From an uncultured Candidatus Sumerlaeota bacterium (GTDB lineage: Bacteria; Sumerlaeota; Sumerlaeia; MVZB01; JAJFLK01), in contig CAZRCZ010000008.1 of assembly GCA_964598765.1 (NCBI GenBank), positions 79,934 through 143,933 of the forward strand: a stretch of DNA of 64,000 nucleotides, given 5' to 3'. Positions 19,686-34,256 of this stretch are shown here, piece by piece; position 1 is the first letter of the stretch, and every line of letters begins with the position of its first letter. The position numbers and the translations under genes were made by a program. The notes below the pieces were generated by a model. The model worked only from the letters and a program-made list of their open reading frames with translations. It searched no databases and was not told the origin of the DNA.

Positions 19686-22600
19686 ATGAGGCTGAAGGGA
19701 AAAACCAAACTTGCCGGAATGTGCCTTATTCTTCTGGCGAACGCCGCGCTTTGCCAGACCGGAACTTGGACCCCTCTGACGAACCCCGCGCCGGGCTGGG
19801 TTTGGCTGATGCTCCTGCTTCCCGACGGGACCGTCATGGCCGCGACGTATAACGGCAGTCCCGGCAATGCGTGGTATCGCCTGTCGCCGGACACCCAAGG
19901 CCATTACGTCAACGGCGTTTGGAGCGCGCTGGCTCCGATGACCGACACGCGCATTTATTATTCTTCCGACGTTTTAAGGGACGGCAGAGTTTTCGTCGCC
20001 GGAGGGGAGAACGGCACGGGGGGAGCCAAAGCGGAGGTTTATGATCCGCAGACCAACGTCTGGACTCCGATTGTCATCCCGCCGAACTTGATCACGGGTT
20101 CCGGTTTCGTGGACTCGGAATCCAAAATCCTGTCCAACGGCAACGTGCTGGTGGCTCCGGTCTATCCCTATATTTTCGGCGGGACCGTCATTTTCAATCC
20201 CGTCACCAATACCTTGTCGGCGGGACCGACGCTGTATCGCGGCGGGAACCAAGCCGAGGCGAATTGGGTCAAGCTCCCCGACGAAAGCATTTTGACCATT
20301 GATCCGGGGAGCACGACTTCGGAGCGTTACATTCCCTCGCTGAACAGCTGGGTGGACGACGGAGTCGTTCCGGTGGATATCCATGATCCCTTTATATCCG
20401 AATTGGGAGGGCCGCTTCTATTACCCAACGGCAAAGCGTTCTTCATTGGCGGGAGCGGACACACCGCCCTTTATACCCCTTCGGGGACCAGCAGTCCGGG
20501 CGCTTGGGCGACCGGACCCGACCTACCCAACGGCCAAGGGATGGCCGACGCGGCGGCGGCCATGATGGTCAACGGGAAGGCTTTATGCGCCGTGTCGGCG
20601 GTTCCCACCGCCAGCGACAACTTTACCTCCCCCACCAGCTTTTATGAGTATGACTATTCCGTCGGAGCCGCGGGGTCGTTCACTCGGACGGGGAGCCCTA
20701 CTGGGGGGCTTACCGACAACGTCCAAGCCTACTTCGGGATGATGCTCGATCTGCCCGACGGCAACGTGCTCTTCGCCCAGATTGACAGCCAGCTTTATGT
20801 TTATCAGCCGGTCGGTTCCCCGTTGGCTTCATGGAAGCCGACCATCAGCGCCGTCACCCCCAACGGCGACGGCTCGTATCACTTGACCGGGACTCAATTG
20901 AACGGCATATCCGAGGGGTCCTCCTATGGCGACGACGCGCAGATGGACAGCAATTATCCTCTCGTGCGGTTCACGGACGGATCGGGCAAGGTTTCGTATG
21001 GACGGACGTATAATTGGAGTTCGACCGGAGTGACGACCGGAAGTGCGGTCGTGAGCACGGAGTTCAGGCTGCCGGCGTCTTTGGCGGGGGGATCGTATTT
21101 GCTCGAGGTGGTCGCCAATGGGATAGGCTCGGATGCGACCACCTTTGTCAATCCCGCACCCACCCCAACGCCGACAAAGACAGTTTCGCCGTCCCCCACG
21201 CGGACCGCGACCGGAACCCCTTCGCCGACACGCACGGCGACCGGGACAGTTTCACCCTCCCGCACGCGGACCGCAACCGGAACTCCCTCGCCCACTCGCA
21301 CGGCTACCGGAACAATCACGCCGTCCCGTACATTCACGCCGTCCCCTACGCGGAGCGCCACCACAACTCCTTCGCCTACCCGTTCGCCGACGACGACCCC
21401 AACCCGTAGCCCCACCGGCACCCCCACTGGCACGGCAAGCCCTTTGCCGACGGTGCCGCCCCCGGGATTCGCGGGGGGACCGCTGGATGTACCGGTACAG
21501 GAGGCGGGGGATTGGTGGCAGTATGACCGGACGTTCATTTTGGGAATACCCACCAGCCAAAGGCTGAGTTGGATCAACGTGATGACGCTCCAAATCAATG
21601 AACGATTTACGAAGACGGTGGATACCACGACGCCGATACCGGCGGGCGTTTACAATTCGCTGGGGGGACCGTTCAAGGTTTATCTCCGCAACCGCTCCAA
21701 CACCACGGCAACGGGCACGGGTTTAATCGCGACAAATGTTCCCGGATACAACGTTCGGGCGGCATTGAACTTGACGTCTCTGAGCACAACAGCCGGCCTC
21801 GATTGGCGACAGGTTTCGGATATGGCCGAGGTTCGGGAAAGCTTCAACCTCTCCGGGACGATACGATCGAATATGACGGCTGATGATGGATGCATCAACG
21901 TCAATCCCGTTCCCAATCCTTTCAACAACCGATTTCTTCTGAATTACACGATGGAGTACAACCGGCCTCTGGAGTATGCCGATTTTCCGCTGGACACGGC
22001 CAATCAGCCGCCGGGAGAAAATTGGCAGAGCCGTCCGCTCCGCAGGGTGTTCGGAACAATCCATCTGGAAATGCCGACCTTGGGACTCGCCACGATTACC
22101 AGCATCCCGGCGACAACGATTGATCTTCCCTTTGATTCCTCGCAGGGCTTCACGTTCACGCATGTTTTCACGAACACGGTTTCGACGGGGCGGGGACCGT
22201 GGGACAATTCCCGCCGAATCGTCAACGCCGCCTCGGCGAAGAACGCCTACTACAACGCCACGGCGCACGAGTTCATAGATTTGGCGCAGGCCGACGTCAC
22301 GGCGAACAATTCGGCCGGAAGTCTGGCGGCAACGTTCAACGGTTGGGACACGTTGGTCACCGGCAGTGTGATCGGGAACGATTACAGCGTCGCGGCCAAC
22401 GCCGACGTCGGGGACCTCGCGATCAATCCGGCATGGCCGCATTGGGGGCAACTCTTCACGATCAGCGGATCGTCCGATTTGGGGACGCAGATGACGGCGG
22501 AAATCACGGACACCGGCACGAGCGCCACCGACGCGATCAGCGGCGGACTTTTCAACCTCGTCCTGCGCGCCCCGTCGGCCAATGATTCCAGTCCGATGGG

Positions 22601-25600
22601 GCCGATCAACACCGATTGGGGATCGTATGGGATCGAGCTGACGCGCAATACCGTGGGACCGACCGGACAACGCAAATATGCGACGGTCCGGTTGGGAACG
22701 CCGCTGGTGGCGCTGAGCGCGACGAGTCAAACGGTCACCGAAGGCATGGACCCCAACGCCGCAATCGCGATTCGCTTGATTGACATGCAGGGGAATCCGG
22801 TGACGGCGAGTTGGAACATGGATGTCACGGTGAATTACGCGACGAGCAATGGTACAGCCGTCCGGCCCGGAGATTACACTAGCGTTTCAGGGACGGCGAC
22901 GATCGGAGCCTATCAAGGCTCGACGAACGTTTTGGTTCCGATCATTGACGATGGCTTGACCGAACCAACGGAATTTTTTCTGTTCACGATTTCGTCTCCG
23001 AACGCGAATGCGATCTTGGGCAACGTTTCGCCGGTCAACGCGCCGGTGGTGGAGACGGTCTTCATCTTTGATCACGGAACCGGTCCGACGCGGACGGCGA
23101 CCCTTTCTCCGACGCGATCCGCCACGCCGACCCCAACGCGGACCATTACGATATCGCCTACCCGCACGAGCACGCCGTCCCCCACGCGAACGGGCACACC
23201 CACCAAGACGCGCACGGCGACGGTGACGGGGAGCGGAACGATCACCCCCTCGCCGACGCGCACGGCGACGGATTCGCCCACGGCCACGCCAACCCCAACC
23301 TGCCCCCCCAATTCCCTATTGGCTACGTTAAACAATCCTGCCCCGGCGCCTAGTGATAACTTCGGAATCTCGGTCGCGATTTCCGGAAATCTAGCGATCG
23401 TTGGCTCTTGGGATGCGGATCCCGGCGGGGTAACGGATGCCGGGAGCGCCTACGTGTTTGACGCGACGGCGGGCGGGTTGGTCTCGACGCTCAATGAATC
23501 CGCGCCGGCAACGAGCGATTGGTTTGGCTATTCGGTTGCCATCTCCGGCAACTTAGCCGTGGTTGGAGCGATTGGAGACGACCCCGGCGCCGTGAGTTGC
23601 GCGGGGACGGCCTATGTCTTCAACGCGGCAACCGGCGCATCGGTGACGACGCTGAACAATCCCGCTCCGGCGGCAAATGATTCTTTCGGCGCCTCGGTCG
23701 CGATTTCCGGCAACTTGGCCGTCGTGGGTACGCCTTACGATGACCCCGGCGGGGTAACTGACGCCGGAACGGCTTACGTTTTCAACGCGACGAGCGGCGC
23801 GTTAGTGGCGACCCTGAATAAGCCTACGCCCACGGTGGGTGATGAATTCGGCTGGGCTGTCGGAATCTCGGGCAATCTTGCCGTTGTGGGGGCGCGATGG
23901 GACGACCCCGGCGGTGTTAGCAACGCGGGAGCCGCCTACGTCTTTAACGCCGCGACCGGCGCATTGGTGGCGACGTTGAGCAATCCCACGCCCACCGCCG
24001 ACGATCTCTTCGGCGCGTCGGTGGCGATCTCCGGCAATCTGGCCGTTGTAGGCGCGCCTCAGGACGACCCCGGCGGAGTAAGCGGTGCGGGAACGGCCTA
24101 CGTTTTTGACGCCACGACCGGAGCGATGATTGCAACGCTGAGCAATCCCGCGCCCGCAATGAGCGACTTCTTCGGAAGGTCGGTTGCGATTTCGGGTAAC
24201 AATGCGTTGGTGGGAGCGGATGGGGACGACCCGGGAGGGATGACTAACGCCGGAACCGCCTATGTCTTTGATGCCACGACCGGCGCGCTCGCGGCAACGT
24301 TGAATAATCCCGCGCCGACGGCGGGGGATCAATTTGGCTGGACGGTCGGGATTTCCGGAACCGTGGCTGTGATCGGCGCACTATATGACGACCCCGGCGG
24401 GGTGACCGACGCGGGGAGCGCCTATGCATTCACATGCGCCTCATTGGTTCCAACGGTAACCCCGACTCGCACAACAACGCCGACCCAGACGCGCACCGCC
24501 AGTCTCACGCCAACTCGGACCTTCACCTTGTCTCCCACTCGCTCGGCGACGCGGACCACGACGCGGACCTCAACGCCGTCGCCCACGCCAACGGCAACGC
24601 CGAGTCTGACCCCCAGTCCTACCCCATGCATCCCCGGAGCCTTCACCGACCGCGCCAACGCCGATCTTCCCGTCGCCGGAACCGTGACGGGGGATTACAC
24701 CGGCACGCTTTCGAGCGACAACGGCTATGAATCCATCGCCGAGGTTTACACCGGCGGCTATTGGCAATTGACGCACAAGTGGACCCTCCCGATCACCGCA
24801 GGATCCAACGTCCACACCTTTTCGGTGGAGGCGTTTCACACGACCAACCCGAGCGGACAGGATGATTTCATCTTCAGTTACTCGACCGACGACGTCGCTT
24901 ACACGGCGATGCTGACGGTGACCAAGACGGCGGACGACAACACGCCGCAGACGTTCGCGCTTCCGGCGTCGCTTCCCTCGACGCTTTACATCCGGGTCGT
25001 GGATTCTCTGGCGAGCGACACCAACAGCAACGCCAACCGGAAGACGACGATCAGCGTGGACGACATGTTTGTCGCCTCGACGATCGTTTGCCCCACGCCC
25101 ACCCCGACCGGCACGCTGACGCCGTCTCCGAGCCGCACTTCCACGCCGACGGCGACACGAACGGCGTCGTTGACCCCGACGGCAAGTCGCACGGCGACCT
25201 CCTCGGCAACGCGAACGGCCTCCTTAACCCCCACACCCACGCGCACGGGAAGTGGGACGGCAACGCGTTCCGCGACGCCAACCGGCACACGGACGGCAAC
25301 CTTGACGGCGACTCCAACCCGAACCGCGACGCTTTCGGCCTCGCGCACCGCAACTTTCTCCCCAACCCGAACCGCGACGCTCTCCCCGACGCCGACGGCT
25401 TCGGCGACGACAACCCGTTCTTCAACCCGGACACCGACACGGACGGCCACGCTGACGAACACACGGACAGGGACCGTCACATTGACGCCGACCAGAAGTG
25501 CGACGTTGTCCCCTACGCGCACCGGAACCCTCACGGCGACGCGATCCTCGACTCCGACGCCCACGCGGACCGCCAGCGCGACGGGGACGCGAACCGCAAC

Positions 25601-27386
25601 GCCGACGAACACTCGGACGTCGTCCTTGACGGCGACTTCCACGCGGACGGCAACGTCTTCGCCGACGCGCACGGGGAGCGCGACCGCAAGCCGGTCCTCA
25701 ACACGGACGGCGACCCGGACCGGAACCGTGACCAGCACACGGACGGCATCCTTGACTCCGACGCGAAGCTCGACGGCGACTCCCACGCGAACCGCCTCCT
25801 TGACGGCGACAAGGTCCTCGACACCGACTTCCACGCGCACGGCTACCGTCAGCGGTTCCGGCACGATCACGCCGAGTCCAACGCGCTCATCCACGCGAAC
25901 GCCGACCCGCACCGCGACGCTTTCGCCGACGCGCACCGGAACACTCAGTCCGACGCGGAGCGCGACGTTCTCCCCCACCCGGACGTCGTCCTTGACGCCA
26001 ACCCCATCCCGGACCGCGACGTTCTCTCCCACGCGCACGGGCAGTGTGACCGCAAGCCGTTCAGCGACACGGACGCCGACGCGGACCGGAACACTGACAA
26101 GCACACGGACGGCGACTACGACATCAACGCGAAGCGCAACCTTGTCCCCGACGCGCACCGGAACGCTCACGGCGACGCGGTCAGCATCGTTGACGCCAAC
26201 TCCCACGCGCACCGCAACGCTCAGTCCGACGCGAACCGCGACGGTTTCGGGAAGCGGAACGATTACCCCCAGTCCGACGCGATCGGCAACCGTGACGCCG
26301 AGCGGGACCCTCACGCCCTCTCCCACGCGGACGGGAAGCGCAACGGCAACACGGACCGCAACCTTGTCTCCCACTCGAACGTCCACAAAGTCCGCAACGT
26401 CCACCGCGTCCGCCAGCCCCACCCGATCCTCAACCCGAACTTCGACCCGCACGGCCAGCAAGTCTCCGACGCGCACGGCGACCCTTTCGCGCACCCGAAC
26501 GGCGACCAAGTCGCCGACCCGCTCCTCCACGCGCACGCCGACGCGCACCGCGACGCTCTCGCCCACGCGGACGGCCACCTTGACGCCGACCCCATGCGTC
26601 CCCGGAACTTTCACCGACCGCGCCAACGCCGATCTGCCCGTCACCGGAACCGTGACGGGGAACTACACCAACACGCTTTCCAGCGACAACGGCTACGAGA
26701 CGATCGCCGAGGTCTATACCGGCGGCTACTGGCAGTTGAAGCACAAGTGGACGATCCCGATCACGCCGGGTTCGGACGTTCACACCTTCTCGGTCGAGGC
26801 GTTCCACGGGACGAACACGAACGGTCAGGATGATTTCATTTTCAGTTATTCGACCGACAACGTGACGTTCAGCAACATGCTGACGGTGACGAAAACGGCG
26901 GACAACAACGGGGTGCAGACGTTCGCGCTTCCGGCGTCGTTGCCGTCGGTCATTTATATTCGTGTCGCGGATTCATTGACGTTTGACACCAATCCCAGTC
27001 CGGATCGGGCCACGACAATCAACGTGGATGATATGTTTATCACTTCGACGATCACCTGCGGCACGACGCCGACGCCAACCCCGACGCGCACGGCGACTGC
27101 CACGGCGACGCGGACCGCGACACGGACGAACACAAGAACCGCGACGCAGAGCGCGACGCCGACAAGAACCGCCTCAAAGTCCGCGACATTCACCGCGTCC
27201 ACCACGTCCACGCCAACCCGCTCGGCCTCGTCCACCGCAACCCGCACCGGAACGCGCACCCCCAGCCCGACCCCCAGCGCGACACAAACGCCGATCCCCT
27301 CGCCAACCCCAACCGCAACGCCTTCCCCAACCCAATCCGCCACCCCCACACCCAACTCCGCGCGAAATTGGGAAATTTACGAGTAA
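19686..27386 (+). CDS. Giant secreted surface protein (2566 aa): Kelch/galactose-oxidase-like propeller, Calx-beta domain, 8 FG-GAP repeats, duplicated ~150-aa module, extensive Thr/Pro-rich [ST]PTRTAT linkers; C-terminal tail NSARNWEIYE
   Basis: The signal peptide is MRLKGKTKLAGMCLILLANAALCQ. The Calx-beta domain reads YATSNGTAVRPGDYTSVSGTATIGAYQGSTNVLVPIIDDGLTEPTEFF. The eight FG-GAP repeats span ~23300-24420. The duplicated module lies at ~24630-25090 and ~26590-27070. Confidence 0.7.
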   Translation: MRLKGKTKLAGMCLILLANAALCQTGTWTPLTNPAPGWVWLMLLLPDGTVMAATYNGSPGNAWYRLSPDTQGHYVNGVWSALAPMTDTRIYYSSDVLRDGRVFVAGGENGTGGAKAEVYDPQTNVWTPIVIPPNLITGSGFVDSESKILSNGNVLVAPVYPYIFGGTVIFNPVTNTLSAGPTLYRGGNQAEANWVKLPDESILTIDPGSTTSERYIPSLNSWVDDGVVPVDIHDPFISELGGPLLLPNGKAFFIGGSGHTALYTPSGTSSPGAWATGPDLPNGQGMADAAAAMMVNGKALCAVSAVPTASDNFTSPTSFYEYDYSVGAAGSFTRTGSPTGGLTDNVQAYFGMMLDLPDGNVLFAQIDSQLYVYQPVGSPLASWKPTISAVTPNGDGSYHLTGTQLNGISEGSSYGDDAQMDSNYPLVRFTDGSGKVSYGRTYNWSSTGVTTGSAVVSTEFRLPASLAGGSYLLEVVANGIGSDATTFVNPAPTPTPTKTVSPSPTRTATGTPSPTRTATGTVSPSRTRTATGTPSPTRTATGTITPSRTFTPSPTRSATTTPSPTRSPTTTPTRSPTGTPTGTASPLPTVPPPGFAGGPLDVPVQEAGDWWQYDRTFILGIPTSQRLSWINVMTLQINERFTKTVDTTTPIPAGVYNSLGGPFKVYLRNRSNTTATGTGLIATNVPGYNVRAALNLTSLSTTAGLDWRQVSDMAEVRESFNLSGTIRSNMTADDGCINVNPVPNPFNNRFLLNYTMEYNRPLEYADFPLDTANQPPGENWQSRPLRRVFGTIHLEMPTLGLATITSIPATTIDLPFDSSQGFTFTHVFTNTVSTGRGPWDNSRRIVNAASAKNAYYNATAHEFIDLAQADVTANNSAGSLAATFNGWDTLVTGSVIGNDYSVAANADVGDLAINPAWPHWGQLFTISGSSDLGTQMTAEITDTGTSATDAISGGLFNLVLRAPSANDSSPMGPINTDWGSYGIELTRNTVGPTGQRKYATVRLGTPLVALSATSQTVTEGMDPNAAIAIRLIDMQGNPVTASWNMDVTVNYATSNGTAVRPGDYTSVSGTATIGAYQGSTNVLVPIIDDGLTEPTEFFLFTISSPNANAILGNVSPVNAPVVETVFIFDHGTGPTRTATLSPTRSATPTPTRTITISPTRTSTPSPTRTGTPTKTRTATVTGSGTITPSPTRTATDSPTATPTPTCPPNSLLATLNNPAPAPSDNFGISVAISGNLAIVGSWDADPGGVTDAGSAYVFDATAGGLVSTLNESAPATSDWFGYSVAISGNLAVVGAIGDDPGAVSCAGTAYVFNAATGASVTTLNNPAPAANDSFGASVAISGNLAVVGTPYDDPGGVTDAGTAYVFNATSGALVATLNKPTPTVGDEFGWAVGISGNLAVVGARWDDPGGVSNAGAAYVFNAATGALVATLSNPTPTADDLFGASVAISGNLAVVGAPQDDPGGVSGAGTAYVFDATTGAMIATLSNPAPAMSDFFGRSVAISGNNALVGADGDDPGGMTNAGTAYVFDATTGALAATLNNPAPTAGDQFGWTVGISGTVAVIGALYDDPGGVTDAGSAYAFTCASLVPTVTPTRTTTPTQTRTASLTPTRTFTLSPTRSATRTTTRTSTPSPTPTATPSLTPSPTPCIPGAFTDRANADLPVAGTVTGDYTGTLSSDNGYESIAEVYTGGYWQLTHKWTLPITAGSNVHTFSVEAFHTTNPSGQDDFIFSYSTDDVAYTAMLTVTKTADDNTPQTFALPASLPSTLYIRVVDSLASDTNSNANRKTTISVDDMFVASTIVCPTPTPTGTLTPSPSRTSTPTATRTASLTPTASRTATSSATRTASLTPTPTRTGSGTATRSATPTGTRTATLTATPTRTATLSASRTATFSPTRTATLSPTPTASATTTRSSTRTPTRTATLTNTRTGTVTLTPTRSATLSPTRTGTLTATRSSTPTPTRTASATGTRTATPTNTRTSSLTATSTRTATSSPTRTGSATASRSSTRTATRTGTVTSTRTASLTPTRSSTATPTRTASLTATRSSTPTSTRTATVSGSGTITPSPTRSSTRTPTRTATLSPTRTGTLSPTRSATFSPTRTSSLTPTPSRTATFSPTRTGSVTASRSATRTPTRTGTLTSTRTATTTSTRSATLSPTRTGTLTATRSASLTPTPTRTATLSPTRTATVSGSGTITPSPTRSATVTPSGTLTPSPTRTGSATATRTATLSPTRTSTKSATSTASASPTRSSTRTSTRTASKSPTRTATLSRTRTATKSPTRSSTRTPTRTATLSPTRTATLTPTPCVPGTFTDRANADLPVTGTVTGNYTNTLSSDNGYETIAEVYTGGYWQLKHKWTIPITPGSDVHTFSVEAFHGTNTNGQDDFIFSYSTDNVTFSNMLTVTKTADNNGVQTFALPASLPSVIYIRVADSLTFDTNPSPDRATTINVDDMFITSTITCGTTPTPTPTRTATATATRTATRTNTRTATQSATPTRTASKSATFTASTTSTPTRSASSTATRTGTRTPSPTPSATQTPIPSPTPTATPSPTQSATPTPNSARNWEIYE
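25080..26590 (+). repeat. In-frame DNA tandem repeats (18-24-nt units, ACGCGCAC[GC]GCGACG-like) encoding [ST]PTRT[AG]T linker
   Basis: Degenerate units repeat about 70 times. Shorter tracts lie at 21160-21440, 23090-23300, 24440-24620 and 27060-27345. Confidence 0.8.
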
Positions 27387-27400
27387 ATTGGGATTGTCGG

Positions 27401-28483
27401 CTACGGAATCGTAATCGAAAACGCGACCCGTCCGCCATCCAGACAGCGCGCTTCCGCCGTTCCGCCGTGGGTGCGGGCGACGGCATCCACGACGTAGAGA
27501 CCGATCCCCGAACCTTCGACCCCCGAACTGATCGCCGCGCGTTTGAATCGTCCGAATAGTTCCGGCAAGGATTCCGGTTGGAGGCCAGGAGCAAGGTTGA
27601 CGACTTCAAAACACAAGGCCGGACGACCCGAGAGGTTCTCCCTGCGGATGCAAAGGCAAATCGGTTCCGAAGGATTGCCATATTTGATTGCGTTCTGCAG
27701 AAGATTTCCGACAGCGCGAAAGAGCAAGGACTCATCGAAGACCGCGCTTTCCGGCGCGCCCGATAAATCCATGTTCACTTCAAATCCCCGCCGTTGCGCC
27801 TCGGTTCCGTAAATCGCCGTCAAGCCTTCGGCGAATTCCCGCAGATGGACCTGTCTTGGATGCGTCGAAAGTTTGCCTGCCTCGGCCCGGCAGGACATCA
27901 GGTAATTGTCAATCAACGCCAGCATTTTCTGACCGTTGACCCGAATCGTCTCGGCGAATTCCTCGGCGCGGGGATGAAATTTTCCGGTGTCCTTGTCCTG
28001 CATCATCGCGGCAAAACCGATGATGGTGGTGAGCGGAACCTTGATGTCGTGCGTGATCATCGCCGCCGTGTCGTGCTTCAACTGCTCGACTTCGATTTTG
28101 TGGAAGGCGCGCTCGACGGCGGACCGTAGCAGGTCGAACTCGAATGGTTTGCGCAGATAATCGAACGCCTGAAAATGCAAGGCTTGGATCGCGGAATCGG
28201 TCGAGGCGTAACCGGTAATCACAATGACCAACGTGGAGGGATGCATTTCATGAATCCGGCGGATGACTTCCAATCCGTCCACCTCCTGCATCCGCAGATC
28301 GGTGATAACGACCGAGAACCCGCGCTCTTCCAGCGCGCGGATGCCTTCGGCGCCTCCATAAGCGGTGTGAACCTCGTAACCTTGCGCGGCGAGTAAATCC
28401 CGAAGCGAATCGGCCATTCGACGTTCGTCATCAACGATTAGGATGTTTTTTTCAATCACGAGAATTCCTTCAACCCGGACCAA
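27401..28483 (-). CDS. Hybrid response-regulator/histidine kinase (REC-HisKA-HATPase_c, no sensor/TM domain)
   Basis: The N-terminal REC domain reads ILIVDDERRMADSL...VITDLRMQEVDG...DYLRKPF. The H-box is MITHDIKVPLTTIIGF. The ATPase region contains LLQNAIKYG and GSGIGLYVV. Confidence 0.75.
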   Translation of the reverse strand: MVRVEGILVIEKNILIVDDERRMADSLRDLLAAQGYEVHTAYGGAEGIRALEERGFSVVITDLRMQEVDGLEVIRRIHEMHPSTLVIVITGYASTDSAIQALHFQAFDYLRKPFEFDLLRSAVERAFHKIEVEQLKHDTAAMITHDIKVPLTTIIGFAAMMQDKDTGKFHPRAEEFAETIRVNGQKMLALIDNYLMSCRAEAGKLSTHPRQVHLREFAEGLTAIYGTEAQRRGFEVNMDLSGAPESAVFDESLLFRAVGNLLQNAIKYGNPSEPICLCIRRENLSGRPALCFEVVNLAPGLQPESLPELFGRFKRAAISSGVEGSGIGLYVVDAVARTHGGTAEARCLDGGRVAFSITIP

Positions 28484-28818
28484 CCGACGGATTGTTCACG
28501 GCTCCTCGCGGGGTCGTCAACGTATTTTTCAAAGTGATACCTTTTGAGCACTTTGTGTGACTTGACCATGCCCTTGGAACGGTCCCGTCTTTTTTCAAAG
28601 CAACGGATGGGGATGAAATAGCTTGATAACTCATGGTAATTCAGTCATCTAAGGCTGTTGATTTCACCTTGGCAATTCCGTATGAAGCTTGGCCTGAATT
28701 TGGCTCAACCCAACCGCAGGATTAGATTTTACGCTTTAATCCGGGTGATAAGTTTTTTATGCTTGAGAAAAATTTCACGAATTGGTATGGAAGAGGCGGT
28801 CGCGGCGGTTTTCACGCC

Positions 28819-29751
28819 ATGAAGTCCACGCTGTTTTCCAGTTCCACCCCCGGCCATGTTCCAACGATTCGTCGTGCCTTCCAAACTTCCTTTGCTTCGT
28901 CAATCTGCGCGGTGTTGCTCGCTTCTTGTTCTTTATTTTCGCCGTCCGCTTGGAAATCCGCGAAGGACAAAGAGCCGGAACCCGCCGATCAACTCCTGCT
29001 TCGGGCCACGCTGGATAAAAGCGCCTATCGTCCGGGCGAGGCCATCCTGATGCGCGTCTCCCTGACCAACACGACGCCACAATCGCTCAGCATCAAGAAA
29101 CTCAACGCCAAGTCCCTGACGTTCTGGTTCGGCGACGTGAGGGAAGGACGGCGCTTTGAGCGCAACGCGGTCGTGAGTAAATTGGAAGAGAAATCCATCA
29201 ACGAAGCTGGAACCGAAGTTGACGAGCTCAAGCCGGGAGAATCGTGGGAGCGTCAATTTCTGCTGACGCGTCTGACGGCGGAGGATGGCGATTACGTCGC
29301 GCAGGTCCACATGATTCCGTACGCGGACGCCGACTCCTCGGGAACGAGCAAAATTTTCAGCAACGCGCCCCGGTATCAAGTTTACGGAGATCGTCTGTTC
29401 GAGCGGGACAACGGCGGATTGCTTCAACGGAAGGACGCCGTCAAAATCGCTTCGGCGGATCTTCAAGCCGGTTCGCCCCTGTCCGATGCTCTGTTGGTCG
29501 AAGATGAGAAGGTTGGGTTTTTGGTCTGGTGGATCAATCTCACTTACAAGAATCCGCAAGGGGAGCAAGTTCAGACAGGCTATCTTGTGGATCCCTATTG
29601 GGGAAAAATCCGGTCGCGGGTCAAACCGTTCGATCCGAAGATGAAGGCCGAATCGGATTCCGCCGGACAACGCCCTCCGGCAAGATTGTTCCCCAAGACG
29701 AATTTTTCCAATCCCAACGCGGGAGAATCTAAGGAAGGGAAAAGAAATTGA
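28819..29751 (+). CDS. Hypothetical lipoprotein
   Basis: The start is reassigned to the internal Met (MKSTLFSS...). The lipobox is LLASCS. The gene lies immediately upstream of the secretin genes. Confidence 0.5.
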   Translation: MKSTLFSSSTPGHVPTIRRAFQTSFASSICAVLLASCSLFSPSAWKSAKDKEPEPADQLLLRATLDKSAYRPGEAILMRVSLTNTTPQSLSIKKLNAKSLTFWFGDVREGRRFERNAVVSKLEEKSINEAGTEVDELKPGESWERQFLLTRLTAEDGDYVAQVHMIPYADADSSGTSKIFSNAPRYQVYGDRLFERDNGGLLQRKDAVKIASADLQAGSPLSDALLVEDEKVGFLVWWINLTYKNPQGEQVQTGYLVDPYWGKIRSRVKPFDPKMKAESDSAGQRPPARLFPKTNFSNPNAGESKEGKRN

Positions 29752-29809: not shown

Positions 29810-31672
29810 GTGATGTTCAAACGATTAGCGTGGCTTTTGGCCGCGGGGATTCTGATTGCGGGGCCGAGGTTGGCCCGGGCCGACGGGGACGAGGCTCCGG
29901 CCGCGAAGGCCGCCGCTCCGGCCAAGGAGAAAGCCCCTGCCAAGGAAAAACACTCCCACGAGGATGAAGGCAAGGGACACAAACATATCCCCTACAGCAA
30001 GGAACCCGTGGATGACATTCAAGTGGTTAATGAGCACGCGCATCCCTTGGAGGGAGTTTTCTTTCCGCCGGAATCGCATCATTATCAGGACCTCGACACG
30101 GCTCCCAATGAACAACTCAACCGCAACGTGCGGATTCTGCGGACGACGAGCAAGGTTCAATTAAACCGTTACGTTCCCATCGTCGTCACGATGAAGAACG
30201 TCAATCCCTATCACGTTGTTCAGTTCTTTCATCGGGCGATTTCGTCCGAAGAAGGGGCGATTTACACCTATGTCAGCGACAAGGGGAACGACGGCTTGAT
30301 TTTGATGGGCGTTCCCGAATATCAGATTCCCTACATCGAGGATTTGGCGAAGAAACTCGACATGCCCGGATTGACGGACGAGGACGGTACGACCAGGGTG
30401 TATCGCCAGTTGAAGCACCGGCGCGCCAACATCGATCCGGTCAATTCCACGCTTGACGATTCAGGATTCCCGAATTCGTTCCTGCCTTATTTGACGGGCA
30501 ATGGAACAAAGATCATCGTGGACCCGGAACAGAACGCGGTTTACATCGAGGATCCTCCGACCGGCTTGGCCACCTTGGACGCCGATTACGCGACCAAGCT
30601 GGATCAGCCGACGCCCGAAGCGGTGATTGACACCAAGTTGTATGAGCTTGACATGAACAACAACGCGCGGTTGGGTTTGGATTACATCGCTTGGAAAAAC
30701 GGTCCGGGACAAAATCTTTTCGCCTTCGGAGCGTATTACGAGCATGGAGCCGTGAACATTCACAAGGGCACCGGCTTGGGGACCTCCGCCCTCAACGGGT
30801 TGGACACCCTTCCCATGCCGAAATCCAACTTCACCAGCCATGGATACAACTTCGCCTACGCCTACGACGTGCCGTCGGCTTACTTTGATTTCCTCGCGGT
30901 TCGGGGCAAAGCCAAGGTGCTGAACTCGGCGAAAGTCGCCGCGCTCAACACTCGCTCGGCCACCATCACTGCGGGCGATCAGGTTCTCTATTATCCGGTA
31001 GCGACCTCCGATCCTTCGGGCGTTCGGCCCAAGGGCGCTCCGTTCGCGGCCAACAGCGGACGGGCGGTTTTGGGAACGCAAAATTCGGCGACCTCGACCG
31101 ACGTGCCGATTGGAACCCTCGAAGTCACCACGACCTCGGGCGACACCAGCGTCAAGACGACGACGGCGCTCACGGCGACCTCGACGACGCTTGCGCCGGT
31201 TCAAACGGGACTTCAGATCAACCTGACGCCGCTGATTTATGACAATGGATTGGATTTGACCATTGCCGGAAACATCAGCGACTTCAATGGGTTCGACGAC
31301 ACGGGCGCGCCCAAGATCAACAATCGCTCCATCTCCACGAGTCTTCGGCTCAAGGAAGGAAGCGAGACGATCCTTGGCGGGCTGATGCGCGAGAGCAAGG
31401 TCAAGGGGAAGAACGCCATGCCGATCTTTGGGAAAATTCCCATTCTCGGCTGGGCCGTCGGCGGCGAAACCACACGGAGCACGAAGTCCGAAGTGGTTCT
31501 TGCGGTCAAGGTTGACAAGATCGAACGGTTCGATCCCAAGGCCAAGACCACGATGAGCGCCGAGGACAAAGCCGTGGCCGAAGGTCCGGTCCCCGTTCCC
31601 GCCGCGCAGTGGGGCTTCGACATGTTCTGTCTGGACAAAGAGAAGCAACCCTACGCCTTCGAAACGAAGTAA
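29810..31672 (+). CDS. Secretin-family outer-membrane channel protein (GspD/PilQ superfamily), paralogue 1
   Basis: A signal peptide is present and the RBS is ggagg. Secretin_N-like segments are present. The C-terminal secretin signature is MPIFGKIPILGWAVGGETTRSTKSEVVLAVKV. Confidence 0.7.
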   Translation: MMFKRLAWLLAAGILIAGPRLARADGDEAPAAKAAAPAKEKAPAKEKHSHEDEGKGHKHIPYSKEPVDDIQVVNEHAHPLEGVFFPPESHHYQDLDTAPNEQLNRNVRILRTTSKVQLNRYVPIVVTMKNVNPYHVVQFFHRAISSEEGAIYTYVSDKGNDGLILMGVPEYQIPYIEDLAKKLDMPGLTDEDGTTRVYRQLKHRRANIDPVNSTLDDSGFPNSFLPYLTGNGTKIIVDPEQNAVYIEDPPTGLATLDADYATKLDQPTPEAVIDTKLYELDMNNNARLGLDYIAWKNGPGQNLFAFGAYYEHGAVNIHKGTGLGTSALNGLDTLPMPKSNFTSHGYNFAYAYDVPSAYFDFLAVRGKAKVLNSAKVAALNTRSATITAGDQVLYYPVATSDPSGVRPKGAPFAANSGRAVLGTQNSATSTDVPIGTLEVTTTSGDTSVKTTTALTATSTTLAPVQTGLQINLTPLIYDNGLDLTIAGNISDFNGFDDTGAPKINNRSISTSLRLKEGSETILGGLMRESKVKGKNAMPIFGKIPILGWAVGGETTRSTKSEVVLAVKVDKIERFDPKAKTTMSAEDKAVAEGPVPVPAAQWGFDMFCLDKEKQPYAFETK

Positions 31673-31708
31673 CCCCGAGTAACGAAGAAAGATTAAAGGA
31701 GCATTGAC

Positions 31709-33475
31709 ATGAAATCCAAAAAACACACGCGAATCGCCGGACTGGCGCTACTGAGCGGGCTTTTGGCCTCTCCGTTGGCGTTCGGTCAGGCGCAGTCGCT
31801 GATCTCCATTCCTCCGGTCAACGGCGACAACGGGGGACTGATTAACCAGAACAACTCACCGACGGTCTTTGTGGGACCTCAACCCTCGACCGACGAGAGC
31901 CACATCAACGACTACACCAATCAGAACGACCAGATGAATCTTGACGCCAACGCGGGCAATGTTCGCGTCCTGCGGACCAGCCAGAAGGCGTTGCTGAACG
32001 ATTTCGTCACCGCCCTGATTGAGGTAAAGGACGTGGACGTGCGGGAAATCCGCAACGCCATCCGGACCATTTGCGGTTTGGAAGGCGGACGCGCCGAAGT
32101 CGTGATCCACTACATCGTGGACAAGGATGGAAAGCCGGTTCCAGACAAGGACGGCAAGCCGCAGATCGAGAAAAAGTTCGTGCAGGTCATCTGCCCGAAG
32201 TTTCAACTTCCGTATCTGCAAAAGGCCATTGCCGCCTTGGACAAAGCGTGGGTCGGCGAGGAAAACACCGGATCGGTGACGTTCTACTACAAGGCGAAGA
32301 ACCGGAACGCGGCGGGCATTGACTTCATTGCTTCGCACTACGCCTCGGAAACCTCGGCCACCGGAGCTTTCACCGTGATTGACACCACCAACAACGCCGT
32401 CACGCGGCTGGAGGAAGCCTTCCGCGCGGACAAATACATGGAAGCGGCCAAGCAAATTGACATCCCGGCCAATCAGGTCTCGCTCGACGTCAAGGTCGTG
32501 GAACTCAACTCCAACAACGATCTGAAACTCGGCTTGGATTACATCAATTGGAAGAACGGCCCGGGACGCAGTCTTTGGGAGTTCGTCTCCTCCGGATTGC
32601 TTCACGCCGAAAGCCGGAACAAGACCCTGACCAGCATCTACGACCCCGTGACCTTCGGGTTTGCGGGATCGTCGGGCGCGGCAGTGTTGAAGGCGGAATT
32701 CGAGCAGTCCTATCGCGCCGTGAATTATCTGCTGACCTCCAACTACATTGACTTCCTTCAGGTCAAGGGACAAGCCCGCGTGATGACCCAACAGAGCCTT
32801 CGGGTCAAGAGCGCGAACACGGCGACAATTGCGACCAATGACGTCATCGTCGCCACGACCAGTTCGCCGTCCGATCTGGACACCGTCGGCGCCGATACCC
32901 ATCAAGGCATCTCCGCGACCGACCTTGAAGGAATCCGCGTCTCGAAACCGAGCGAGGAGAGCATCTTCACGGTTCCGGTTCGAGACTATGATCGTCGGCT
33001 TCATCATCGTCCCGCCGGTTCGACGGGTCTCTTCCTTGCGGTCACGCCCTTCGTCGGGCTTGAGTCCATGGAATTGGTCCTCAATATCTCCAATGCCGAC
33101 CTGAACGGCGTGGCTCCCAACGGGCAACCGCTCATCAACAATCGCGAAATTACCACGACGATCCGTTTGATGGACGGCGAGCCTTACGTCATCAGCGGCC
33201 TCAAGCGCAAGCACGACATCCGCGAGACGGGCAAGGTTCCCGGCTTGGGTGACATTCCCATCATCGGCTATCTGGCTGGCGGCGAGAACAATATCCAGCG
33301 CGAGAATGACGTCGTCATCATCGTGACGCCTCATTTCCAACTGGCTTCGCAGGCGGACATCAAGAATCCGCAGGAAGTCAAGGATTTGGCCGAAGCGGTC
33401 GGTGGCGCGCCGAGCAAACTGCCTTCCAACCCCTACGGTTACGATCAATGGTTGCTGGATCCGAACGCGAACTAA
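31709..33475 (+). CDS. Secretin-family outer-membrane channel protein, paralogue 2
   Basis: The signal peptide is MKSKKHTRIAGLALLSGLLASPLAFGQA and the RBS is aaaggag. The C-terminal signature is VPGLGDIPIIGYLAGGENNIQRENDVVIIVTPHF. Confidence 0.7.
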   Translation: MKSKKHTRIAGLALLSGLLASPLAFGQAQSLISIPPVNGDNGGLINQNNSPTVFVGPQPSTDESHINDYTNQNDQMNLDANAGNVRVLRTSQKALLNDFVTALIEVKDVDVREIRNAIRTICGLEGGRAEVVIHYIVDKDGKPVPDKDGKPQIEKKFVQVICPKFQLPYLQKAIAALDKAWVGEENTGSVTFYYKAKNRNAAGIDFIASHYASETSATGAFTVIDTTNNAVTRLEEAFRADKYMEAAKQIDIPANQVSLDVKVVELNSNNDLKLGLDYINWKNGPGRSLWEFVSSGLLHAESRNKTLTSIYDPVTFGFAGSSGAAVLKAEFEQSYRAVNYLLTSNYIDFLQVKGQARVMTQQSLRVKSANTATIATNDVIVATTSSPSDLDTVGADTHQGISATDLEGIRVSKPSEESIFTVPVRDYDRRLHHRPAGSTGLFLAVTPFVGLESMELVLNISNADLNGVAPNGQPLINNREITTTIRLMDGEPYVISGLKRKHDIRETGKVPGLGDIPIIGYLAGGENNIQRENDVVIIVTPHFQLASQADIKNPQEVKDLAEAVGGAPSKLPSNPYGYDQWLLDPNAN

Positions 33476-33500: not shown

Positions 33501-33546
33501 AAAAAAAACCCGGCATGGCGAAAAGCCGTGCCGGGTTTTTCTTTTG
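33501..33546 (+). terminator. Rho-independent terminator
   Basis: The sequence aaaaaaaacccggcatggcgaaaagccgtgccgggtttttctttt forms a GC stem (one mismatch) followed by a T-tract. Confidence 0.75.
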
Positions 33547-33646: not shown

Positions 33647-33991
33647 GTGAACCATAAAATGAAATCCGTCTCATCACCGAGAATCGCTTCCCCGATTGAA
33701 TCCCATCGTGACGATTTGATCCGTCTCTGCCACAAATTCGGCGTCAGCAGAATTGATCTTTTCGGCTCTGCCGCTTGCGAGCGTTTCGACGCGGGAGCGA
33801 GCGATTTCGATTTCAGGGTTGAATTTCATCCTCTTGCCGCCGGCCAACATGCGAAAGCCTATTTCGGATTGAAGGAGGAGCTTCAAATGATTTTGGGTCG
33901 GCCCACTGATCTCGTCATGTCGCGAGCCGTCACGAATCCATATTTCTTTCAGGCCATTGAGCCGTCGCGTGTCACGCTCCATGAGGATTGA
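33647..33991 (+). CDS. mntA: MntA-type nucleotidyltransferase antitoxin (Pol-beta superfamily)
   Basis: The minimal nucleotidyltransferase motif is DLFGSAACERFDAGASDFDF, and it is paired with a DUF86 gene. Confidence 0.65.
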   Translation: MNHKMKSVSSPRIASPIESHRDDLIRLCHKFGVSRIDLFGSAACERFDAGASDFDFRVEFHPLAAGQHAKAYFGLKEELQMILGRPTDLVMSRAVTNPYFFQAIEPSRVTLHED

Positions 33992-34256
33992 GACCCGCAA
34001 ACTGCAGGAAGACATACGCGGGTCCGCCGAGCGGATTCTGCGATTCACTTCGGGAAAACAGTTTTCGGATTATCGGACCGACGATCTGTTGCGCTCCGGC
34101 GTCGAACGGCAATTCGAGGTAATTGGAGAAGCCCTCAATCGTATCGTTAAACTTGATCCCGTCGCCGCCCAAGGCATCCCTTATTATCGGCGGGTGATTG
34201 ACTACCGAAATGTTTTGAGCCACGGATACGACGTCGTTGAACATTCGGTCGTGTGA
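33957..34256 (+). CDS. hepT: HepT-type HEPN (DUF86) toxin
   Basis: The Rx4HxY motif reads RNVLSHGY near the C-terminus. The gene overlaps mntA by ~35 nt. Confidence 0.6.
   Translation: MSRRVSRSMRIETRKLQEDIRGSAERILRFTSGKQFSDYRTDDLLRSGVERQFEVIGEALNRIVKLDPVAAQGIPYYRRVIDYRNVLSHGYDVVEHSVV

What the first reader, a model, noticed from the sequence alone, without database searches (positions are those of the whole stretch)
29810..33475. Two tandem, strongly diverged secretin paralogues with no nearby ATPase, inner-membrane platform or pilin genes
Both ORFs (620 and 588 aa) have signal peptides, secretin_N-like modules and the C-terminal secretin signature (IPILGW.../IPIIGY...). Their overall identity is low. 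Known secretins form homo-oligomeric pores and are encoded with their T2SS, T3SS or T4P partners. An isolated tandem pair suggests either a hetero-oligomeric secretin or two alternative outer-membrane gates. An upstream lipoprotein (28819..29751) is a possible pilotin, and the operon ends at a clean terminator (33501-33546).
Basis: partly seen in the sequence, partly recalled or inferred. Interest (0 to 1): 0.7.

Follow-up and report, generated by a model that had tools for sequence, protein, structure and literature searches.

The report
Conserved twin-secretin plus lipoprotein operon
Two ancient, full-length copies of the outer-membrane "secretin" pore protein sit side by side with a partner lipoprotein, and this trio is inherited as a fixed unit across the little-known phylum Sumerlaeota; that suggests a pore built from two different subunits, which has not been shown for any bacterial secretin.

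Summary
ORF A (29810-31672) and ORF B (31709-33475) are both complete secretins (Pfam PF00263, E about 1e-24). They are 27% identical and align over their whole length. A lipobox lipoprotein lies upstream and a strong terminator downstream. The 64 kb window has no type II secretion or type IV pilus genes.

The organism is most likely Candidatus Sumerlaeota (BRC1), not PVC.

All 53 non-redundant related loci carry A then B in the same order. 42 of them also have the lipoprotein directly upstream. Flanking genes differ from locus to locus. Several genomes hold 2-3 diverged copies of the whole cassette. A and B diverge in step (r = 0.91) and at equal rates, so they look like obligate partners rather than redundant duplicates.

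Their isolation is partly explained by the phylum itself: pilus genes (several PilB, PilC and PilT copies, many pseudopilins) are scattered, and the three PilB loci examined have no secretin.

Best reading: one outer-membrane channel built or gated by both paralogues, helped by the lipoprotein, serving type IV filament machines encoded elsewhere. Hetero-oligomerisation is unproven.

In two other cassette clades, but not the window's, the trio sits between phoBR-like genes and pstSCAB-phoU.

This is a new variant of a known kind.

The parts
28819..29751 (+). Lip: conserved outer-membrane lipoprotein, about 310 aa from ATG 28819 (the longest ORF starts at 28759). The lipobox is LLAS-C. It appears to have an N-terminal arrestin-C/MG2-like beta-sandwich and a weak PepSY-like C-terminal part. 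Proposed role: assembly or anchoring partner of the two secretins.
   Evidence: Translation and sequence. Homologues lie directly upstream of A in 42 of 53 cassettes. The Cys is invariant in alignment A3. My lipobox pattern matched in 33 of the 42 homologues. No Pfam or NCBIfam family reaches its cutoff; there are weak Arrestin_C, MG2 and PepSY hits, and profile hits to arrestin in the PDB.
29810..31672 (+). Secretin A, 620 aa. It has a signal peptide, a disordered Lys/Ala/Pro/Glu-rich linker (about residues 23-93), two beta-alpha-beta-beta-alpha ring-building modules, a secretin barrel carrying the LGLDYIAWKNGPG motif and an insert of about 60 aa, the IPILGW amphipathic loop motif, and a conserved C-terminal GFD..LD tail.
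   Evidence: AF2 model mce9aa4ae4b88, pLDDT 68.8. Foldseek against the PDB gives GspD, InvG and PilQ at E 1e-16 to 1e-12 over about 500 columns. A-type family of 45 database hits.
31709..33475 (+). Secretin B, 588 aa. Its architecture is the same as A. It also has a B-specific conserved N-terminal peptide (P59..S64..Y69..Q72..N77) and a lysine/aspartate-rich hairpin insert in the first module.
   Evidence: AF2 model me1472d1f7f32, pLDDT 74.7. Foldseek against the PDB gives GspD, InvG and PilQ at E 1e-18 to 1e-15. B-type family of about 120 database hits. Profile-profile alignment to the A family.
33504..33540 (+). Intrinsic terminator that closes the Lip-A-B operon. It has a 16-bp stem with 9 G-C pairs, a 5-nt loop and a T-run. 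An A-run upstream makes it potentially bidirectional.

Best explanation
This is a three-gene operon, Lip-SecA-SecB.

Shown:
- Both secretins are complete pore subunits with the same architecture: signal peptide, two periplasmic ring-building modules, full barrel with gate region and membrane-insertion loop, and a shared C-terminal tail.
- They come from a single old duplication.
- Since then they have been kept adjacent, in the same order, at equal evolutionary rates. When the cassette multiplied within genomes, it was copied as a whole.

Inferred:
- The two proteins work as obligate partners on one outer-membrane conduit, most simply as a mixed (for example alternating) ring. A less likely form is two cooperating rings.
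- The lipoprotein anchors or assembles the complex, perhaps through the GFDQWLLD-type C-terminal tail that both secretins share.
- The channel serves the type IV filament machines (T4aP or T2SS-like), whose inner-membrane and ATPase genes are scattered elsewhere in these genomes.
- In other cassette clades the trio is embedded in the phoBR-pstSCAB-phoU locus. Those copies are probably induced by phosphate starvation. Nothing links the window's own copy to phosphate.

My probability for each step: real, co-functional pair about 0.9; serves type IV filament machines about 0.6; true hetero-oligomeric ring about 0.4.
For: Both are intact secretins and full-length paralogues:
- Both have intact secretin domains and full secretin folds.
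- The two family profiles align end to end.

Conservation of the pair:
- 53 of 53 non-redundant cassettes have A then B on the same strand. In the eight loci with gene calls the A-B gap runs from a 4-nt overlap to 70 nt.
- Lip is directly upstream in 42 of 53.
- Flanking genes differ in almost every locus.
- At least eight MAGs carry two or three diverged cassettes, and these are orthologous between genomes. L001/L025 versus L044/L043 is one example.
- A and B distance matrices correlate at r = 0.91. Their nearest neighbours are the same in nearly every cassette, and mean divergence is equal (0.61). Neither copy is decaying.

Link to type IV filament machines:
- Published KO tables for 16 Sumerlaeota MAGs list 5-8 pilB in most of them, 2-7 pilC, up to 12 pilT and up to 26 gspG-like genes. 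In the four Sumerlaeales genomes they list only 1 gspD plus 1 pilQ, that is two secretin genes in total. pilP, pilN and gspC are 0 in all MAGs (PMC8092238).
- PilB loci contain no secretin.
- PilB-PilC and the pair share one 704 kb contig.

Pho-linked clades.
Against: - There is no direct evidence of physical A-B association. AlphaFold-Multimer was not available.
- Co-inheritance and matching trees are expected for any two tightly linked, co-transcribed genes. They do not separate a mixed ring from two separate homo-oligomers.
- Every secretin solved so far is a homo-oligomer.
- There is no consistent genomic link to any PilB, PilC or pilin gene. Only 1 of 53 cassettes has a PilB within 10 kb, which is about background. 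The tie to type IV filament machines therefore rests on elimination and on published KO counts, not on my own whole-genome census.
- Neither protein has a detectable N0 domain, the usual docking site for GspC or PilP.
- Odd secretin counts in some MAGs may mean that extra singleton secretins exist.
Confidence: 0.5

Rival explanations
1. There are two separate homo-oligomeric secretins ('alternative gates'). They are co-transcribed for convenience, and each serves a different type IV filament machine, for example one a pilus and one a T2SS-like secretion or DNA-uptake system.
For: All solved secretins are homo-oligomers (PDB hits). Sumerlaeota genomes carry many PilB, PilC and PilT paralogues, so several machines need outer-membrane exits. 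A and B each keep every hallmark motif of a self-sufficient subunit.
Against: None of the 53 cassettes has lost one member. Every cassette duplication kept both, in the same order, and both evolve at identical rates. Two independent functions would be expected to separate or be lost differentially at least sometimes. The four Sumerlaeales genomes have 7-8 pilB but only two secretin genes.
Confidence: 0.3
2. The cassette is an autonomous outer-membrane gate that does not depend on pilus-type machines. In this reading the channel is used for nutrient acquisition, such as phosphate, polyphosphate or DNA uptake, or release of phosphate-scavenging proteins, with Lip as its only partner.
For: - In two separate cassette clades the trio lies on the same strand between PhoB/PhoR-like genes and pstS-pstC-pstA-pstB-phoU. 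L022 is the best case, with PstS, PstC, PstA, PstB and PhoU all above their NCBIfam cutoffs. L006 has PhoBR upstream, PstS downstream and an alkaline phosphatase nearby.
- There is no enrichment of pilus genes near cassettes.
- No N0 domain is visible, and pilP and gspC are absent from the KO tables.
Against: - The window's own clade has no pst or pho genes nearby.
- Only about 10 of 53 cassettes are Pho-linked.
- No secretin is known to work without an inner-membrane machine.
- A Pho-regulated secretin that is part of a normal T2SS already exists: Hxc/HxcQ of Pseudomonas (from my own knowledge; related papers were listed). Pho linkage therefore does not imply autonomy.
Confidence: 0.12
3. This is an ordinary recent duplication, or a decaying or redundant copy, or a prophage-borne pIV-type secretin.
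For: Tandem duplicates and phage secretins are common in general.
Against: Identity between A and B is 24-33% in every cassette. The A/B split predates all cassette clades. Both copies evolve at equal rates with invariant motifs retained. Phage genomes give only remote partial hits, at best E 2e-6 over 18% of B. There are no phage genes nearby.
Confidence: 0.02

Closest known systems
T2SS secretin GspD/PulD with pilotin (PulS/AspS)
   Same: A and B share the secretin barrel fold with gate region and amphipathic loop, and have periplasmic ring-building modules. The best Foldseek hits are GspD structures. A lipoprotein is encoded alongside, and a conserved C-terminal tail could play the role of the S-domain.
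   Different: TIGR02517 scores are 73-80 bits against a cutoff of 351. There are only two N-modules and no recognisable N0. The gsp operon is absent. There are two paralogous subunits instead of one. The lipoprotein is unrelated to PulS, AspS and the other known pilotins.
Type IVa pilus secretin PilQ (with PilF/TsaP)
   Same: These genomes have T4aP-type PilB, PilC and PilT. Published annotation files one of the secretins under pilQ. The C-terminal half matches PilQ structures.
   Different: TIGR02515 scores are 65-69 bits against a cutoff of 284. There are no AMIN domains and no pilMNOP neighbours. The genes are paired, and the lipoprotein is not a TPR pilotin.
Hxc T2SS of Pseudomonas aeruginosa (liposecretin HxcQ, Pho-regulated, secretes alkaline phosphatase LapA)
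   Same: It is a precedent for a secretin channel under phosphate-starvation control and sited near phosphate-acquisition genes. This matches the Pho-embedded cassette clades.
   Different: Hxc is a complete T2SS operon with a single secretin that is itself lipidated. Here there are two non-lipidated secretins plus a separate lipoprotein and no T2SS genes. The window's own copy is not Pho-linked. The comparison rests on my own knowledge of Hxc; only listed related papers.
Mitochondrial T2SS-derived system (miT2SS): GspD plus the divergent paralogue GspDL
   Same: Two co-occurring paralogues of the secretin C-domain were interpreted as an elaboration of one pore (PMC8134430).
   Different: That system is eukaryotic and mitochondrial. 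Its genes are not linked, the N-domains are split off as separate proteins, and hetero-oligomerisation is also unproven there.
Mixed multimers of filamentous-phage pIV from f1 and IKe
   Same: They show experimentally that two diverged secretins can co-assemble into one ring (from my own knowledge, not checked here).
   Different: That was an artificial combination of orthologues from two phages, not a naturally paired, co-evolving gene couple.

Membership tests
Secretin superfamily (Pfam PF00263) | C-terminal secretin domain above the Pfam gathering score | tested here: met
   A scores 85.8 bits and B 82.8 bits against a cutoff of 27.5. The AF2 models match GspD, InvG and PilQ over about 500 columns at E down to 1e-18.
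Secretin superfamily | Sec signal peptide and periplasmic ring-building (N1/N3-type) modules | tested here: met
   The N-termini read as signal peptides (no predictor was run). There are two beta-alpha-beta-beta-alpha modules in each model. Pfam Secretin_N is sub-threshold in A only.
Secretin superfamily | Homo-oligomeric ring of 12-16 subunits | not testable with these tools
   No multimer prediction or experiment was available. This is the open question.
T2SS GspD (TIGR02517) | Equivalog HMM score above cutoff and N0-N1-N2-N3 architecture | tested here: not met
   Scores are 73.5 and 79.8 bits against a cutoff of 351.35. Only two N-modules are present.
T2SS GspD | Encoded with gspC-M, or at least co-occurring with GspC | tested here: not met
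   No gsp genes are in the window or in 52 of 53 related loci. gspC is 0 in all 16 published MAGs.
T4aP PilQ (TIGR02515) | HMM score above cutoff, AMIN domains, pilMNOP neighbourhood | tested here: not met
   Scores are 64.7 and 69.1 bits against a cutoff of 284.35. There is no AMIN hit. No pilMNOP lies near any cassette.
Tad secretin RcpA/CpaC | Similarity to RcpA/CpaC and a tad/cpa gene neighbourhood | tested here: not met
   Only the C-terminal 100 residues or so match RcpA 8odn (E 5e-4 for A, 3e-9 for B). No tad genes are nearby. JGI's 'CpaC' label on some B orthologues is automatic annotation.
T3SS SctC | Equivalog HMM score above cutoff | tested here: not met
   Scores are 51.5 and 60.2 bits against a cutoff of 238.45.
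Pilotins (PulS/OutS, AspS, PilF/PilW/TadD TPR, MxiM/ExsB) | Outer-membrane lipoprotein encoded with its secretin | tested here: met
   Lip has a lipobox with an invariant Cys. It lies directly upstream of A in 42 of 53 cassettes.
Pilotins | Homology to a known pilotin family | tested here: not met
   No pilotin family was hit. There are only weak Arrestin_C, MG2 and PepSY signals.
Pilotins | Binds the secretin C-terminal (S) region and is needed for outer-membrane targeting | not testable with these tools
   Both secretins share a conserved C-terminal tail. Binding is inference only.
Pho regulon member | Adjacent to or co-transcribed with phoBR or pstSCAB-phoU | tested here: not met
   The window's cassette has no pst or pho neighbours. 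The feature is met only for other cassette clades (L006, L020, L022, L035, L040, L050/51, L063).

The most novel reading that the evidence does not exclude
SecA and SecB co-assemble into a naturally hetero-oligomeric secretin ring, for example alternating A/B. The ring is anchored by a new kind of beta-sandwich/PepSY lipoprotein. It acts as a modular outer-membrane gate that is encoded apart from any inner-membrane machine and has been duplicated and re-deployed, including into the phosphate-starvation regulon. This would be the first heteromeric bacterial secretin.
Probability: 0.35. Interest if true: 0.8.

Novelty: new variant of a known kind. Interest (0 to 1): 0.62.

Why it matters
[quoted passage not shown] Every structure solved so far is a ring of identical subunits. 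A lineage-wide, obligately paired set of two diverged subunits with its own unrelated lipoprotein would show that the ring can be built from two gene products, as has happened in other ring complexes.

It also gives a clean natural system for asking how subunit number, gating and membrane insertion are divided between paralogues.

For Sumerlaeota, it identifies what may be the only outer-membrane conduit for a large set of PilB, PilC and PilT machines. In some relatives it ties that conduit to phosphate scavenging. Published Sumerlaeota genome surveys list these genes simply as gspD and pilQ, without noting the pairing.

Tried and rejected
1. Assignment to a secretin subtype. NCBIfam equivalogs for GspD, PilQ, MshL, SctC, HofQ and Amuc_1098 are all far below cutoff. 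PDB sequence and fold searches do not separate T2SS, T3SS and T4P.
2. Guilt by association with pilus or T2SS genes across 60+ loci. One PilB (L037) and four loci with prepilin-like genes is about the background rate.
3. Looking for the secretin at Sumerlaeota PilB loci. None was found.
4. Phage or inovirus origin. Only remote hits.
5. The giant FG-GAP_2 protein upstream as a conserved neighbour or substrate. A similar neighbour was found beside only one other cassette (L004/L039), plus L062, which has only a solitary short secretin.
6. General linkage to ABC importers. Apart from pst, this is at background level.
7. Literature search for tandem or heteromeric bacterial secretins. Nothing turned up apart from the mitochondrial GspD/GspDL case. 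Nothing links Sumerlaeota to secretins.
8. Same-cassette versus other-cassette A-B similarity, as a hint of co-adaptation or gene conversion. The excess is only +6 bits, which is not informative.
Full report
**What is in the window**

- ORF A runs 29810-31672 (620 aa). ORF B runs 31709-33475 (588 aa). Both are on the + strand, 36 nt apart, and each is preceded by a Shine-Dalgarno-like sequence.
- Both hit Pfam Secretin PF00263 at E 3e-24 and 3e-23, far above the gathering score.
- They are 27% identical over about 580 aligned residues (E 8e-49).
- An ORF upstream, from ATG 28819, has a lipobox (LLAS-C) and no family assignment.
- A 16-bp G+C-rich hairpin with a T-run at 33504-33540 closes the unit.
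- I scanned all ORFs of 200 aa or more in the 64 kb against Pfam. I also scanned all ORFs of 60 aa or more for the GspE-type Walker A motif and for prepilin N-termini. No secretion ATPase, platform protein or pilin turned up.
- The neighbours are unrelated to secretion. They are a 2566-aa FG-GAP_2/Calx-beta/Kelch surface-type protein, a divergent hybrid response-regulator/histidine kinase, a nucleotidyltransferase and an amine oxidase.

**Whose genome**

- The closest homologues of A (up to 58% identity) and of B (63%) come from metagenome bins named Candidatus Sumerlaeota, Sumerlaeia or BRC1.
- B itself is 100% identical to a protein on a 163 kb NCBI contig.
- The lineage is therefore Sumerlaeota, not PVC.
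- Related cassettes do occur in bins labelled Planctomycetota, Phycisphaeraceae or Brocadiaceae. I could not verify those labels.
- Very distant tandem secretin pairs occur in Lentisphaerae bins.

**Anatomy of the two proteins**

- AlphaFold2 models built on family alignments have mean pLDDT 68.8 for A and 74.7 for B.
- Both show the same plan:
  - a signal peptide;
  - a disordered linker;
  - two beta-alpha-beta-beta-alpha ring-building modules;
  - a long beta-barrel core;
  - a short helix at the IPILGW/IPIIGY motif, which is the membrane-insertion loop of secretins;
  - a final strand and a C-terminal tail.
- Foldseek matches both models to GspD, InvG and PilQ over about 500 columns, at E down to 1e-18 for B and 1e-16 for A.
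- Sequence searches against the PDB only pick up the C-terminal 100 residues or so.
- All NCBIfam subtype models (GspD, PilQ, MshL, SctC, HofQ) score 4- to 10-fold below their cutoffs. These are secretins, but they belong to none of the curated subtypes.
- The A and B family profiles align end to end (hhalign probability 100, E 1e-93, 477 columns, 25% identity).
- They share a distinctive motif set:
  - VK(I/V)LRT;
  - P(E)YQ(I/L)PY;
  - LGLDYIAWKNGPGRNLF;
  - SAYFDFL..KGKARVL;
  - K.P.LGS.PV.GYLFGGE;
  - a terminal GFDQWLLD.
- Neither model shows an N0 domain, and there is no AMIN domain.

**The pair is a conserved unit**

- Database hits separate cleanly into an A-type clade (45 proteins) and a B-type clade (about 120).
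- I fetched 7 loci through individual proteins and 60 through a scan of one genome per GTDB species. I then typed all six-frame ORFs with HMMs of A, B and the lipoprotein.
- All 53 non-redundant loci that contain complete genes have A immediately followed by B on the same strand.
- In the eight loci with gene calls, the A-B gap ranges from a 4-nt overlap to 70 nt.
- A homologue of the lipoprotein lies directly upstream in 42 of the 53. Eight loci lack it even though the contig has room for it.
- Most lipoprotein homologues have a clear lipobox, and the Cys is invariant.
- Flanking genes are different almost everywhere. What is conserved is the cassette, not a larger island.

**The cassette duplicates as a whole**

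- At least eight bins carry two or three cassettes on different contigs.
- The copies belong to different, deeply separated clades. These clades are orthologous between genomes; for example L001 pairs with L025, and L044 pairs with L043, in two different bins.
- Across the 53 cassettes, the A and B distance matrices correlate at r = 0.91 and pick the same nearest neighbours in nearly every case. Mean divergence is the same, 0.61 for each.
- Within a cassette, A and B are 24-33% identical. The A/B duplication therefore predates all cassette clades.
- Neither copy is decaying, and neither has ever been lost alone in this sample. This is the main argument that the two act together.
- It does not prove physical co-assembly, because tight linkage alone would produce the congruent trees.

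**Why they are 'isolated' and what they probably serve**

- A published survey of 16 Sumerlaeota genomes states that type IV pilus twitching genes occur in all of them (PMC8092238).
- Its KO table lists, per genome:
  - 5-8 pilB in most;
  - 2-7 pilC in nearly all;
  - up to 12 pilT;
  - up to 26 gspG-like genes;
  - pilN, pilP and gspC at 0 throughout.
- Secretin counts in that table are 1 gspD plus 1 pilQ in the four Sumerlaeales genomes and 0-9 in total elsewhere.
- I used a PilB found 8 kb from one cassette (L037) to reach Sumerlaeota PilB loci. The three I examined showed PilB alone, PilB-PilC, or PilB with a PilT nearby. None had a secretin or pilMNOP.
- On one 704 kb contig, PilB-PilC lies about 230 kb from an A-B pair.
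- Pilus genes are therefore scattered in this phylum. Isolation of the secretin genes is the local norm rather than a special property.
- The most economical reading is that the A-B channel is the outer-membrane exit for these machines.
- That reading rests on elimination and on published counts, not on a whole-genome census of my own. I could not run one.

**An unexpected association**

- I clustered flanking ORFs across loci and annotated them with Pfam and NCBIfam. In two separate cassette clades the trio sits on one strand between a PhoB-like regulator plus PhoR/PnpS-like kinase and pstS-pstC-pstA-pstB-phoU.
- L022 is the clearest case. PstS, PstC, PstA, PstB and PhoU are all above their curated cutoffs.
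- L035, L040, L050/51 and L063 share the L022 layout.
- L020 carries PstS, PstC, PstA and PstB downstream but has no PhoBR upstream.
- L006 has PhoBR upstream, PstS downstream and an alkaline phosphatase nearby.
- PstS is a rare gene, so having it immediately downstream of B in nine of 53 non-redundant cassettes is far above chance, even allowing for shared ancestry.
- Those cassettes are probably induced by phosphate starvation. The Pho-regulated Hxc type II system of Pseudomonas is a functional precedent (my own knowledge; one search lists related papers).
- The window's clade (window, L007, L008, L010-L012) shows no such link. I do not extend this to the window's copy.

**The lipoprotein**

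- Its family profile gives only weak hits: an arrestin-C/MG2-like beta-sandwich in the N-terminal half and PepSY in a few members.
- It resembles none of the known pilotin classes. 'Pilotin' is a reasonable functional analogy (a lipoprotein always encoded with its secretins) but not a family assignment.
- The shared C-terminal tail of A and B is an obvious candidate docking site. This is inference.

**Rivals**

- Two separate homo-oligomeric gates remain possible, at about 0.3. All solved secretins are homomeric, and both proteins look self-sufficient. Against it, neither gene has ever been lost alone.
- An autonomous, machine-independent gate for nutrient acquisition is suggested by the Pho-embedded clades, the missing N0 domain and the missing PilP/GspC. 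I put it at about 0.12. It has no precedent and does not apply visibly to the window's clade.
- Recent duplication, decay and phage origin are excluded.

**Novelty**

- I found no description of naturally paired bacterial secretins.
- The nearest idea in the literature is the co-occurrence of GspD and a divergent GspDL in the mitochondrial T2SS-derived system. That was also interpreted as an elaboration of the pore, and it is also unproven (PMC8134430).
- I rate this a new variant of a known kind. The components are ordinary secretins. The new features are the obligate twin arrangement, its own lipoprotein family, its modular duplication and its partial recruitment to the Pho locus.
- Interest 0.62. 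The comparative evidence for partnership is strong and the hetero-oligomer hypothesis is directly testable, but the key structural claim is not yet shown.

Noticed in passing
L022 4731-16482; also L006, L020, L035, L040, L050/L051, L063: In two cassette clades the Lip-A-B trio is embedded on one strand between PhoB-like and PhoR-like genes and pstSCAB-phoU. L006 also has an alkaline phosphatase nearby. This suggests phosphate-starvation control of those copies. The window's copy lacks this context.
   Followed up: partly
L013/L020/L060 (CAZOKZ01); L024/L044 (JAOAGV01); L025/L043 (JADFCW01); L026/L036 (CAZSMK01); L016/L028; L054/L061: Single metagenome bins carry two or three deeply diverged copies of the whole cassette. 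Published KO counts of up to 9 secretin genes per bin fit this.
   Followed up: partly
window 19686-27386 (+): A giant 2566-aa secreted-type protein lies about 1.4 kb upstream of Lip. It has an N-terminal Kelch propeller, Calx-beta, seven FG-GAP_2 repeats, two repeated about 150-aa modules and very long Pro/Thr/Ser/Arg-rich linkers. This region has the highest G+C in the window (up to 0.66). A 994-aa FG-GAP_2 protein also sits directly upstream of Lip in L004, but no other cassette has one (L062, which has only a solitary short secretin, does), so a substrate relationship is unsupported.
   Followed up: partly
window 27401-28483 (-): A hybrid response-regulator/histidine-kinase gene is divergently transcribed from Lip. 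Two-component genes recur near 16 of 53 cassettes, but outside the PhoBR cases this may simply reflect how abundant the family is.
   Followed up: partly
L065 7887-11500; L067 9671-13214: Lentisphaerae bins carry very distant tandem secretin pairs. The first gene has only a sub-threshold Secretin hit and the second a clear one. These pairs are also isolated from pilus and T2SS genes. The tandem arrangement may be older than Sumerlaeota, or it may have arisen twice.
   Followed up: partly
L062 9820-10902: A solitary 360-aa gene consists of little more than the secretin barrel. It is B-like (33% identity to residues 271-584), has no N-modules and has no A partner. It occurs in a bin that also has a normal cassette (L014). 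FG-GAP proteins are nearby.
   Followed up: no
L037 17681-21596: This is the only cassette with pilus genes within 10 kb. Two pilin-like genes with near-identical N-termini and a MshEN+T2SSE PilB lie 6-8 kb downstream of B.
   Followed up: yes
L068 10001-15401: In one Sumerlaeota contig PilB-PilC is followed by an unknown 350-aa gene, then DprA and topoisomerase I. This hints at a DNA-uptake role for that pilus machine.
   Followed up: no
window 33647-34256 (+): A small nucleotidyltransferase (NTP_transf_2, 114 aa) overlaps the start of a 99-aa ORF just after the terminator. This could be a MNT/HEPN-type toxin-antitoxin pair. I did not examine the second ORF.
   Followed up: no
window 8167-9300 (-): An rve_3/HTH_32 integrase-type transposase gene suggests a mobile element about 20 kb upstream of the cassette.
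   Followed up: no
window 29810-33475: A and B are in the same reading frame (start-to-start distance 1899 nt, or 633 codons), separated by a stop codon and 12 codons. This is probably a coincidence.
   Followed up: no
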